Below are positions 9,001 to 12,000 of a stretch of DNA of 64,000 nt, in pieces (position 1 is the stretch's first letter; each line of letters opens with the position of its first letter). Source of the stretch: Laetmonice hystrix (lineage: Eukaryota). Position numbers: made by a program. Location of the stretch: positions 2,294,001-2,358,000 of the forward strand of contig OZ249449.1 of assembly GCA_965235115.1 (NCBI GenBank), read 5' to 3'.

Positions 9001-12000
9001 ATTTCGTGAAGCGTTACCATGGGAATGTACCTGGCAACTGGTCGGTACTGGAGGTCGGTGTGGAGTTAGTTCATTCTCCCACCGCCAGGTGGGGGTAGAG
9101 AATGGAGACTGATCTCATGGAGAGTAGTAACGCGCGTATGGAGATCAGCTCTGGGAAAGTTCAGGGAGAAGGAGGGGCATATTTGTCCAATTTCTTCAAT
9201 GTTCATTATTATCCATCATTTAAAATCGATGAAATTTTACTTTATGCACAGACTACATCAACTATAAAGTAGCCGAACTGTATTCTTAGGGTTATGACAT
9301 GTTTTCTTCCACTAACACTCCTTTGAGAACAAAATAATGGCAAGCTTTACCATTTTACTTTACTATAACATTATTAGATATACCTTCAAACGATATAGTA
9401 TGTGATGGTTGCGGGCCCGGGCCCGTCGATCCGTAGCGGAGTTCAGCAGGATGGAATGTAAAACACGAGCTCAAGGACGCAGCGCGAGCTGCACCGCCCC
9501 CACCCGGCCACCGCCAGTACTAACGTGGCTGGTGTTTCCGCCCGCCCATTGACTGCTGACAATAGACCGGAAGTGGTCTCGAACCGAAGGCTGACCTCTC
9601 GGCGGCCTGCCCTCAGTTTATCTCCCGCCTCCTAGAATCCCTCAGTGTATAGGCCTAGGGAATCGTAAAGACGTCATAACGCGTTCAGTAATGCATTAGG
9701 GGATACAACTCCAGGCTTGTAAACACGCTCAAAATGATATGCACCCCTTTAACCTTGGAGAGCACATGCTTATAGTGTCTTTCTCTGATTCTGTCTGTCT
9801 CTGTCTGTCTGTCTCTCTCTGTATCTGTCTCTCTCTGTCTCTCTCTCTATCCGTCTCTGTCTCTGTCTCTCTCCCCAATCTCCCTTCTTATTTCTTATTG
9901 AACATTCCATTGAAGTTTGCTGTTTTTAACCCATGACGTTGTTGCTATGGTTACAGACCCGCGGGAGTGGAGCCGAGAGGACGTGTCCAACTGGTTAATC
10001 TACATGAGAGTTACTCACAACCTGACCGACATCCAGCACGATCGCTTCCTCATGAACGGCAAGGCATTGTGCCTCATGAACGCAAACATGTTCTCCTACC
10101 GCGTGCCCGTCGGCGGCAAGTTTCTCTATAGAGACTTCAGAATGAGGCTCAGCCGGGCACTCTCCACGCAGCCGCAAACGCCCACTTCCGTTTCCGCTGC
10201 AGCAGCTACATCCGGGCCTCCAGTAGCCTCCCCGGCTAGGGCTTAACACAAAGCAATCAAGCTGTGGGCAACAAGGACACAGACTGTGTATAGGATATTC
10301 AAACGACAGTTCTGTGTTGTGCGGGGTTTTCCTGGTAGGCTGCTATAGGCCCTACCTTTTTGAAATCGAATGAATAAACTCTATCCAGAAATTGGTTATA
10401 GATTCTAGGCTTGAATAACGCATCGGCCAAACGGATTCGGAGCGTAATCGCAAGCTGATTCCTCTTGAAATCAACTTCACTGACTCTGAGGGGCGCTGAG
10501 TGTCCAGGGTTCCATGGCAACGTTAACATGTTAGAACCATACATCATTTGAGTACTGATTGTCCAGGGTTCCAGCCTGGCAACGTTAAATGTTGACAAGA
10601 CGCGCAGAAATTGACCGTTTCCTAATGTTGTGACGCTTGGAGACGGACAATCTGATTAAAATTAGGTCTTAGTTACTTCGCATGCGCTCCATACTAGGAA
10701 AACAGCCGGGAGAGACGCGGAATACCAAGATCTAATTTTAATTAGATTGGGAGACGGATGAACCTGTTTGTCCTTTAAGGATTGAACAATTAACAGTTAC
10801 TGAAACAAGTTCGTGCGCAGTTCGAAACTCTTCCTACCTGAGCAGAAACGACGTTTTGCCTGTAGTCTACGGTGTCATTGTCAGTTTTTAAACTGTCAAC
10901 GGGTAAGGTATCTTTGAGATCTTTGTGAACATGTCATTAAGATTAGCATTATTATTGTGAGAATCTTTCCTCGCCAAACTAAGCTAAATGTTGCTCGGGG
11001 TCACACAAGGCTACTGAACTTGTTTTAAAACATCCGCGGGAGCATCTTAATAAGAAAGTCGACTTATTCTGTTTGTGTGCAGACAAGACTGACGCAAATT
11101 GTCATGGCAACGGTGGTTGGTACCAGGATGTTGGTGCCGCCCCTGGCGGTGATAGACAGTTTTACTGATCTCAGTCGTGTATAAAGTGTGCATGTCCAGT
11201 CATTTCAGTGTTTGTGTCAATGTCGTCAAGTCTACATTAAGATCTCCTTATATGGGCATCCAATCTACAAGGAGACCAGGGGATGTTTCAACAAGCGCAT
11301 CAGAATGTCCGAACGGTTGTAGGGTCTGGTACGTTTGGTCTGTCGTCGGTCGGAGGGTCGGACGCGCTTATTGAAACAGCCCCTGTACTATCGACTGTTC
11401 AATGTTCCTTTAGTTGATATCGTCAGTAGCGAGTACGTGACCAGTAAAAGTAAAAATGTCGTATGTCTTAATTATGACGTCATTATTGTTATGAGTGGCA
11501 CGTGACCACGCGACATTTGAATGGCTTAATTATGACGTAATTATTGAAATGAGTGACACATAATTTTGGGGCTGGCCCCCAAATAAAATGTCGTGTCCAG
11601 TCGACCAGTACTGTGTTGGTCTAATCGTGGAGTTATTTATTGTGAAACATATTTATACAGACAAAATAATAAACAATTAAGTGGTGAATGAAAGTGATAT
11701 TGTTTGTGTTTTGTACGGAATCTATCTGAATATATAAGTTGTCCCTGGCAACACTGCCGAATAGATTATAGCAGCTTCGGCGGCGCCACCATGGGAGCAT
11801 GGCGTGTGGTATACGGGGACTGGGAGCATGGTGTGGTGCTTGGGGGTTGGGTATATGACGGCCTAGATTCGGGTTGATTTAGCTCGGGAGGGGGGGGGGG
11901 GTATTAGTTCTGGGAGTTGAGTATTGAATTATTTGGGCCTATGACCATTATAGTTTAGGATTTTGCATAGATGTCTAAAGCTGGTTAGCACTGTTTTGAA

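What the first reader, a model, noticed from the sequence alone, without database searches (positions are those of the whole stretch)
9947..10246. PNT/SAM-only Mae/Edl-like protein in an apparently non-arthropod genome
Seen: a SAM-PNT domain with the Mae-type segment RVPVGGKxLYRDFRxRLxRA, then ~25 low-complexity residues and a stop, with no ETS domain. An in-frame ATG at 9947 (gctATGg) would give a 99-aa microprotein; alternatively the ttacag acceptor makes this a phase-1 terminal exon. Established: Mae caps Yan SAM polymers and modulates Pnt-P2 in RTK/ERK signalling, and is characterised mainly in Drosophila. Inference: a dominant-negative SAM-only regulator of ETS factors may be ancestral for protostomes or bilaterians.
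Basis: partly seen in the sequence, partly recalled or inferred. Interest (0 to 1): 0.65.

Follow-up and report, generated by a model that had tools for sequence, protein, structure and literature searches.

The report
Last exon of Mae/Edl-like gene
This stretch is the last exon of an animal gene of the Mae/Edl family, small proteins that carry the pointed/SAM domain of ETS transcription factors but no DNA-binding domain; such genes are already on record in many animal groups, so this is an ordinary new member.

Summary
Window 9914-10246 (+) is an open frame with a SAM_PNT domain (Pfam E 8e-16), a 27-residue low-complexity tail and a stop. It matches Drosophila Mae (PDB 1sv0_C) at 82 bits. Yan, single ETV6 SAM domains and every other solved ETS pointed domain score 42 bits or less.

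None of the 150 best relatives among 1.84 billion representatives has an Ets domain. Neither do 202 downstream + strand ORFs in the window.

The 99-aa microprotein reading is not the best model. A second exon lies at 875-981, with donor CTG|GTGAGT in phase 1. It restores the family-wide LPxDPRxW motif. It is also the best of 5,429 six-frame windows against the two closest relatives. The first coding exons lie upstream of the window.

The family is not confined to arthropods. Named members come from annelids, corals, hydrozoans, a sponge, echinoderms and a shark. A 2018 paper already mentions relatives in echinoderms and Ciona.

Likely function, inferred by homology: a monomeric cap of TEL/Yan-type SAM polymers and a blocker of Pointed/ETS1-type factors. 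This is a new member of a known kind. The window's taxon is unresolved.

The parts
875..981 (+). Penultimate coding exon (107 nt). It starts in phase 2 after the acceptor tgttacag (AG 873-874) and ends in phase 1 before the donor CTG|GTGAGT (GT 982-983). It encodes 35 residues ending ..NMFITLPS. Its last base, G981, supplies the first base of the Asp codon completed by AC at 9957-9958.
   Evidence: A pattern search for [LIVMF]-P-x + G|GTR on the + strand of 1..9955 gave 2 sites; only this one has a consensus donor. Its peptide aligns with the 40 residues before DPRxW of P0281 (score 43) and P0282 (score 48). The summed score of 91 is the best of 5,429 stop-free 35-aa windows in six frames, and 0 of 5,000 shuffles reach it (mean 38.8, sd 6.0). 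Sequence read.
982..9956 (+). Intron of 8,975 nt (GT..AG), filled with minisatellites: a 12-bp unit x54 at 4929-5567, an 80/154-bp G+C-rich unit x21 at 5795-7449, a 35-bp unit x12 at 8539-8957, and a TC-rich microsatellite at 9776-9873 that serves as the polypyrimidine region.
   Evidence: Splice sites read; tandem repeats; G+C of 62-70% at 4-8 kb.
9947..9949 (+). It is an alternative start only if transcription begins inside the intron.
   Evidence: The residues between it and Asp (MVT) lack the family's LPx motif.
9957..10165 (+). First part of the terminal exon: the SAM/pointed domain (DPREW...RLSRAL), including the mid-loop segment MNGKALCLM and the helix-5 segment LYRDF.
   Evidence: Pfam SAM_PNT; Mae 1sv0_C at 82 bits; AF2 helices 7-21, 35-39, 43-49 and 54-70 with pLDDT 93-98; Foldseek top hit 1sv0_C.
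10166..10246 (+). C-terminal low-complexity tail (26 residues, S/T/P/A-rich, holds PQTP and SP) and the stop codon at 10244-10246.
   Evidence: pLDDT is 58-70. The tail aligns with that of P0281, and both proteins end at the same position. After ..RLSRA the window and P0281 each have 27 residues.
10373..10378 (+). First AATAAA on the + strand after the stop, 127 nt downstream of it: a candidate polyadenylation signal.
   Evidence: This is weak evidence: the hexamer occurs 114 times in the window.

Best explanation
[quoted passage not shown] The protein has a variable N-terminal region, of which only the last 35 residues (exon 875-981) lie in the window. It then has one C-terminal SAM/pointed domain and a short disordered tail. 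It has no ETS DNA-binding domain.

By homology with Drosophila Mae, I infer the following. The domain uses its intact mid-loop surface (MNGKALCLM) to bind the end-helix surface of a TEL/Yan-type SAM domain. Its own end-helix surface carries Asp in LYRDF where ETV6 has Leu in LYELL, so it cannot be extended. It therefore caps and depolymerises the repressor polymer. The same surface would bind a Pointed-P2/ETS1-type pointed domain and hide its MAP-kinase docking site.

Shown here: the sequence, the fold, the architecture, the gene structure and the family membership. Inferred only: binding partners, capping and expression.
For: Family:
- Mae scores 82 bits against 42 or less for every solved ETS-factor pointed domain.
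- Foldseek's top hit is the Mae chain of the Yan-Mae complex, at 60% identity.

No ETS domain:
- 149 of the 150 best representatives have SAM_PNT and 0 of 150 have Ets.
- The two closest proteins, P0281 (64% over 94% of the query) and P0282 (75% over 68%), carry only PF02198.
- No Ets match occurs in 202 + strand ORFs of 50 aa or more downstream of 10246. I left out 44 further ORFs that lie in the 53-bp tandem array at 49691-52340.
- A crude six-frame motif scan found 1 spurious hit.

True C-terminus:
- P0281 ends at the same aligned residue.
- 99 of 132 full-domain family proteins end within 20 residues of the domain.

Gene model:
- The exon at 875-981 is supported as described under parts.
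- 68 of 89 family proteins with 35 aa or more before the domain have [LIVMF]-P two residues before DPRxW. Only 5 of 43 short predictions have it. Most short ones show F/L/S-rich strings that break off exactly at the Asp, the mark of a shared intron position.

Hallmark residues:
- Asp in LY(R)DF is nearly invariant (90% or more) in both family alignments.
- It is present in the window and in 14 of the 15 rows compared with it. The coral row there was cut from the wrong stretch; its domain has LYQDF.

Mechanism in print (passages read):
- Mae is monomeric because an end-helix hydrophobic residue is replaced by Asp. It keeps a working mid-loop surface and caps Yan (PMC3355116).
- Mae binds Yan about 1000-fold more tightly than Yan binds itself, and it blocks the MAPK docking site of Pnt-P2 (PMC9499636).
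Against: - No expression data were available, so transcription and splicing are unverified.
- The start codon and most of the N-terminal region are not in the window. The motifs MALDLS, KRVRF and VDSDEE of P0281 and P0282 are absent from the + strand of 1-9900.
- No TEL/Yan or Pointed orthologue of this genome could be examined, so binding is pure inference.
- The family tree is unresolved. It is a quick tree of 74 columns; no starred clade holds the window, and no ETS-factor outgroup was available.
- The identification of the Asp in LYRDF as the published end-helix Asp, and of the Ala in GKAL as the mid-loop Ala, rests on my reading of the alignments plus recalled residue roles. No residue table was read.
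- Drosophila Mae was a poor antagonist of human TEL1 (PMC3355116), so capping does not transfer automatically between lineages.
Confidence: 0.85

Rival explanations
1. A stand-alone 99-aa SAM-only microprotein is translated from ATG 9947, on a transcript that starts inside what I call the intron.
For: The ATG is in frame, with G at -3 and G at +4. The 99 aa would hold the whole SAM fold. Hydra and Hydractinia entries list several isoforms of different N-terminal length.
Against: The ATG lies 7 nt upstream of a good acceptor AG and downstream of a TC-rich tract. The residues MVT before Asp do not match the family's LPx motif, which the exon at 875-981 supplies in the right phase. The short family predictions look like ORF calls that ran into intron sequence.
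Confidence: 0.08
2. This is an alternative SAM-only terminal exon of an ETS-factor gene (in the manner of the human TEL2/ETV7 SAM-only isoform), with the ETS exons lying outside the window.
For: SAM-only isoforms of ETS factors exist (PMC3355116). Some database entries of this family are labelled 'ETV6' or 'c-ets-1 isoform'. Only 64 kb could be inspected.
Against: The domain is 40 bits closer to Mae than to any ETS-factor pointed domain. None of the 150 nearest representatives has an Ets domain. No Ets domain lies in the 54 kb downstream. The next + strand gene is unrelated: it has a JHY domain at 19089-19373. P0281 and P0282 are complete ORFs with PF02198 alone.
Confidence: 0.03
3. It is a non-functional relic: a pseudogene or an unexpressed duplicated exon.
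For: There is no expression evidence. The intron is swollen with minisatellites. The 5' exons were not found in the window.
Against: The frame is intact. All 23 invariant or nearly invariant family residues that fall in the window's sequence are kept. Both exons keep consensus splice sites in matching phases. The C-terminal end is kept relative to P0281.
Confidence: 0.04

Closest known systems
Drosophila melanogaster Mae / Edl (CG15085; PDB 1sv0 chains C and D)
   Same: A single SAM/pointed domain at the C-terminal end and no ETS domain. It scores 82 bits and is 60% identical over the domain. MNGKALCLM is identical and RVPVGGK.LYRDFR.RL.RA is nearly identical, including the helix-5 Asp. The predicted fold is the same.
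   Different: The window's protein has a 27-residue S/T/P-rich tail after the domain, with PQTP and SP sites. Mae and 74 of 132 family proteins end within 10 residues. The N-terminal region of the closest relatives (P0281, P0282) is unlike the fly's except for an LDLS motif. Partners and function are untested here.
Yan (Aop/pokkuri) and ETV6/TEL1 SAM domains, the polymerising pointed domains of ETS repressors
   Same: The same fold and about 38-40% identity. The mid-loop segment is shared (MNGKAL.L.). These are the presumed binding partners of a Mae-type domain.
   Different: They score only 37-42 bits. They have a hydrophobic residue where the window has Asp (LYELL against LYRDF). They sit N-terminal to an ETS domain, and they polymerise (passages).
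SAM-only isoform of human TEL2/ETV7 (TEL2a)
   Same: It works alike: a SAM domain without an ETS domain that antagonises TEL1 and ETS1/ETS2 in reporter assays (PMC3355116).
   Different: It is an isoform of an ETS-factor gene, can itself oligomerise, and is proposed to co-polymerise rather than cap. ETV7's SAM domain scores 39 bits against the window. It is not a family member.
Database entries of ETS-lacking pointed-domain proteins outside arthropods: Acropora digitifera 'Ets domain lacking' (P0283), Hydra, Hydractinia, Ephydatia (P0234), Capitella (P0160), Owenia (P0159), Antedon (P0261), Amphiura (P0258), Heptranchias (P0223)
   Same: The architecture is the same, the helix-5 Asp is kept, and all are found as relatives of the window's domain at E 1e-10 or better.
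   Different: They are 39-57% identical to the window. The coral, sponge and shark proteins are only 13, 7.5 and 4 bits closer to Mae than to a single ETV6 SAM domain, against 40 bits for the window. Their orthology with Mae is therefore less secure.

Membership tests
Mae/Edl (ETS-domain-lacking SAM/pointed proteins) | Contains a SAM_PNT (pointed) domain | tested here: met
   Pfam PF02198, E 8e-16, 58.2 bits against a cut-off of 24. The AF2 model is a five-helix SAM bundle with pLDDT 93-98.
Mae/Edl (ETS-domain-lacking SAM/pointed proteins) | No ETS DNA-binding domain in the protein; the pointed domain is at the C-terminal end | tested here: met
   The stop comes 27 residues after the domain, at the same aligned end as P0281. 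No Ets match in 202 downstream + strand ORFs or in the motif scan. The closest full-length relatives have PF02198 only. The N-terminal exons outside the window were not seen.
Mae/Edl (ETS-domain-lacking SAM/pointed proteins) | Pointed domain closer to Mae than to the pointed domain of any ETS factor | tested here: met
   Mae scores 82 bits. Yan 41.5, ETV6 42.3 or less (single domain), ETV7 39.4, SPDEF 31.8, GABPA 31.5, ETS1 25.6, ETS2 23.9, FLI1 22, EHF 17.7, ERG 17.4. This is a score comparison, not a rooted phylogeny.
Mae/Edl (ETS-domain-lacking SAM/pointed proteins) | End-helix surface disabled by an acidic residue (monomeric cap) while the mid-loop surface is kept | tested here: met
   The window has LYRDF and MNGKALCLM, as Mae does, where ETV6 has LYELL. 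The Asp is nearly invariant in the family. The rule is quoted from PMC3355116. Mapping it to this column is my reading.
Mae/Edl (ETS-domain-lacking SAM/pointed proteins) | Binds the SAM domains of Yan/TEL and Pointed-P2/ETS1 and depolymerises Yan/TEL | not testable with these tools
   No TEL/Yan or Pointed sequence of this genome, or of any other, was among the session's proteins, so no complex prediction was run.
Mae/Edl (ETS-domain-lacking SAM/pointed proteins) | Expressed, spliced mRNA | not testable with these tools
   No transcript data. Support is indirect: consensus splice sites in matching phases and an intron position shared across the family.
ETS transcription factors with a pointed domain (Yan/ETV6, Pointed/ETS1, GABPA, ERG/FLI, SPDEF, ESE) | ETS DNA-binding domain (PF00178) C-terminal to the pointed domain | tested here: not met
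   A stop follows the pointed domain. There is no Ets domain in the window downstream, and 0 of the 150 nearest representatives have one.

The most novel reading that the evidence does not exclude
Mae/Edl-type caps are an ancestral animal component of the ETS network rather than an arthropod device. On this reading the family, with its disabled end-helix surface, reaches from sponges and cnidarians through annelids and echinoderms to at least one vertebrate (a shark). It was then lost in most vertebrates. It also carries a second, unstudied module: an N-terminal (P/A)LDLS motif shared by flies, the annelid Capitella and the window's closest relatives. That motif looks like a PxDLS co-repressor (CtBP) docking site, so these proteins may do more than cap polymers.
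Probability: 0.25. Interest if true: 0.5.

Novelty: new member of a known kind. Interest (0 to 1): 0.25.

Why it matters
For this window it gives a clean annotation: a two-exon 3' part of a Mae/Edl-family gene whose 5' end lies off the window.

More widely, Mae is treated in the papers I could read as a Drosophila regulator with 'no mammalian equivalent' (PMC3355116). Those papers give one sentence to relatives in echinoderms and Ciona (PMC6033539). The searches here show that ETS-lacking pointed-domain proteins with the same disabling Asp are spread over many animal phyla.

A specialist could use that spread to ask three questions: when SAM-capping of TEL/Yan polymers arose, whether it works outside insects, and why most vertebrates lack it. 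The window itself adds only one more member, so its own weight is small.

Tried and rejected
The frame 7948-8109 ends in a stop. It had only a chance-level tblastn hit (E 3.1) and is not among the top windows of the rank test. Rejected.
- **N-terminal exons.** tblastn of nine family proteins against the window found nothing significant apart from the SAM exon. A motif search for LDLS, RVRF, DSDEE, PWFAR and VPPLD found nothing usable on the + strand upstream. An S/T/P-rich open frame at the first 60 nt of the window resembles an S-rich stretch of P0281, but it is not significant and its splice phase fits only a weak donor. Not claimed.
- **Taxon.** NAT9 hits are all 49-66% identical with no close named relative. 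A quick NAT9 tree gives only weak placement. Rfam found nothing in the window. The Atlas gave no usable hit for the 721-aa ORF (score 0.77). For the SAM exon it gave only short SAM_PNT clusters, with arthropods and echinoderms the commonest taxa.
- **Family tree.** The careful search did not finish in 288 s, so a quick tree was used. It is largely unresolved (62 of 120 inner branches open).
- **Whole-frame Pfam scan.** Stop-free ORFs were scanned instead.
- **Spliced model.** The two exons were never joined for a search or a fold. Each was compared on its own.
- **Literature.** Searches for Mae/Edl outside arthropods found only the one sentence in PMC6033539. A search for Edl with CtBP found nothing relevant. 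Supplements were not consulted. The closed metagenome and viral contig collections were not searched.
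Full report
**What is in the sequence.** The + strand frame 9914-10246 is open for 110 codons. From Asp 9956-9958 onward it encodes a pointed/SAM domain. Pfam SAM_PNT scores E 8e-16, 58.2 bits against a cut-off of 24. After ..RLSRA come 27 residues rich in S, T, P and A, then a stop at 10244-10246. The window holds no N. It is not human: its NAT9 gene is at most 63% identical to any named vertebrate NAT9.

**Which pointed domain it is.** Among all solved structures, the best single-domain match is Drosophila Mae (1sv0_C) at 82 bits, E 3.5e-22. 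Next come the polymerising SAM domains of ETV6 (37-42 bits), Yan (41.5) and ETV7 (39.4). Below those are SPDEF 31.8, GABPA 31.5, ETS1 25.6, ETS2 23.9, FLI1 22, EHF 17.7 and ERG 17.4. The higher totals of engineered triple-ETV6 chains are sums over three copies.

An AlphaFold2 model built on a 74-row family alignment has pLDDT 93-98 over residues 1-70 and 58-70 over the tail. Its best PDB match is again the Mae chain of the Yan-Mae complex: TM 0.81 on the target, rmsd 1.6 A, 60% identity. ETV6 and Yan follow at 36-41% identity.

**The family.** A full scan of 1.84 billion representatives gave 353 hits at E 0.001 or better and 135 at 1e-10 or better. Of the best 150, 149 match SAM_PNT and none matches Ets. 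Among 132 family proteins that cover the whole domain, 99 end within 20 residues of it. This is a large family of ETS-lacking proteins with a C-terminal pointed domain, which is the Mae/Edl architecture.

The two closest proteins came from the 'longer' word search (2 hits among 274 candidates). P0281 has 294 aa and is 64% identical over 94% of the query. P0282 has 247 aa and is 75% identical over 68%. Both are unnamed and carry PF02198 only. P0281's tail aligns with the window's, and both end at the same residue. The stop at 10244 is therefore the true end of the protein.

**Gene model.** Family proteins with long N-terminal parts have a hydrophobic residue and a proline just before the domain (LPxDPRxW): 68 of 89. 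Only 5 of 43 short predictions have it. Most short ones show F/L/S-rich strings that diverge exactly at the Asp. That is what ORF calls running into a polypyrimidine tract look like, and it points to a shared intron at this codon.

The window reads ..AMVT before the Asp, with no LPx. Searching the + strand upstream for [LIVMF]-P-x followed by G|GTR gave two sites. One of them, at 972-983, has the donor CTG|GTGAGT. The frame ahead of it, back to an acceptor at 873-874, encodes 35 residues ending NMFITLPS. This peptide aligns with the residues just before the domain in P0281 (score 43) and P0282 (score 48..NVFVTLPY). The summed score of 91 is the highest of 5,429 stop-free windows in six frames, and none of 5,000 shuffles reaches it (mean 38.8, sd 6.0).

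G981 plus AC 9957-9958 makes the Asp codon, so the phases match. The intron (982-9956, 8,975 nt) is full of minisatellites.

The rest of the N-terminal region is not in the window. The motifs MALDLS, KRVRF and VDSDEE shared by P0281 and P0282 are missing, so the gene's 5' end lies upstream of position 1. The 99-aa microprotein cannot be excluded as a minor product, but nothing favours it.

**No onward splicing to an ETS exon.** A motif scan of all six frames found one spurious hit. There are 246 + strand ORFs of 50 aa or more downstream of the stop. I scanned 202 of them with Pfam, leaving out 44 that lie in the 53-bp tandem array at 49691-52340. None matches Ets. The next + strand gene is unrelated: a 721-codon Q/P-rich exon at 14884-17049 and a JHY-domain exon at 19089-19373. 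The first AATAAA after the stop is at 10373, which is weak evidence.

**How it most likely works.** This rests on passages read in two papers.
- Mae is monomeric because a key hydrophobic residue of its end-helix surface is replaced by Asp. It keeps a working mid-loop surface, forms heterodimers with Yan and so caps the polymer (PMC3355116).
- Mae binds Yan about 1000-fold more tightly than Yan binds itself, and it covers the MAP-kinase docking site of Pointed-P2 (PMC9499636).

The window has MNGKALCLM exactly as in Mae, and LYRDF where ETV6 has LYELL. The Asp is nearly invariant in the family. I therefore infer a monomeric cap of TEL/Yan-type polymers and an inhibitor of Pointed/ETS1-type activators. 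That these are the very residues meant in the papers is my reading of the alignments together with recalled residue roles.

One difference from fly Mae is the S/T/P-rich tail with PQTP and SP sites, shared in length with P0281. It could be a kinase target, but that is speculation.

**Distribution and novelty.** I looked up 30 family clusters, and 10 gave an organism:
- the copepod Lepeophtheirus;
- the annelids Owenia and Capitella;
- the corals Acropora digitifera (named 'Ets domain lacking') and A. cervicornis;
- Hydractinia and Hydra;
- the sponge Ephydatia;
- the shark Heptranchias;
- the brittle star Amphiura and the crinoid Antedon.

A passage in PMC6033539 already states that Edl/Mae relatives occur in Tribolium, echinoderms and Ciona, and that vertebrates have no clear orthologue. 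PMC3355116 says that no mammalian equivalent is known. Searches for more found nothing further in the held library. PMC6160229 only cites the Mae structure paper.

A caution applies to the deep members. They are only slightly closer to Mae than to ETV6: coral 74.8 against 62.1 bits, sponge 63.3 against 55.8, shark 54.1 against 50.2. For the window the figures are 82 against 42. Without a rooted tree, independent loss of the ETS domain cannot be excluded for them.

**Taxon of the window.** Unresolved. NAT9 (63089-63676) has no hit above 66% identity among the 120 listed of 1,346. A quick tree of 31 rows pairs it with the unnamed P0012. It places the pair on the side holding molluscs, a bryozoan and a choanoflagellate (SH-aLRT 87, inner forks open), away from vertebrates, ambulacrarians and a spider. 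In the quick family tree the echinoderm members form a separate group from the window. 'Non-arthropod' is likely but not shown.

**Verdict.** It is the terminal exon of a Mae/Edl-family gene, a new member of a known kind, and its interest is low to moderate.

Noticed in passing
outside the window: P0281, P0282, P0160, P0231, P0197, P0227, P0260, P0006-P0008, P0214, P0215: An N-terminal (P/A)LDLS motif occurs in 15 of 108 family proteins with 35 aa or more before the domain. Capitella, P0231 and P0282 start with MALDLS, four others start with MIPLDLS, and flies have RVPPLDLS. It resembles the PxDLS CtBP-docking motif (recalled). A search for Edl with CtBP found no relevant paper.
   Followed up: partly
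P0223 (Heptranchias perlo, 206 aa, on a 15.7-Mb contig): This is an ETS-lacking pointed-domain protein in a shark, although two papers say that vertebrates or mammals have no clear Mae orthologue. It is only 4 bits closer to Mae than to ETV6 (54.1 against 50.2), so its orthology is open.
   Followed up: partly
window 14884-17049 and 19089-19373 (+): The next gene on the + strand has a 721-codon Q/P-rich exon without a Pfam match (Atlas best score 0.77) and an exon with a JHY domain (PF15261, E 8.8e-12). It is probably a Jhy-like gene.
   Followed up: partly
window 29274-30944 (-), with further exons at 33066-33449, 34138-34509 and 35480-35932, and kinase-like pieces near 41800 and 54500 (-): A large minus-strand gene encodes a protein kinase of the SIK/MARK kind. 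It has RRHTVG and RRASDG motifs and ends in a KA1 domain (PF02149, E 2e-08). The kinase-like peptides were seen. The naming as SIK-like is from recalled motifs.
   Followed up: no
window 63089-63679 (+): An intron-less N-acetyltransferase 9 (NAT9) gene of 196 codons. It is 49-66% identical to the 120 listed animal NAT9 proteins, and no closer relative was found in the collection.
   Followed up: partly
window 4929-7449, 8539-8957, 31000-31600, 38763-39302, 44388-45347, 47649-48562, 49691-52340, 56039-57177: The window is unusually rich in minisatellite arrays. These include a G+C-rich 80-bp unit x21, a 53-bp array that makes dozens of periodic ORFs and a 32-bp array marked by evenly spaced AATAAA. 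They produce long spurious ORFs on both strands.
   Followed up: no
window 22000-49500 (+), one ORF not located: One + strand ORF among the 148 of alignment A3 matched the Pfam Vexin domain at E 1.9e-05. I did not find out which ORF it was.
   Followed up: no
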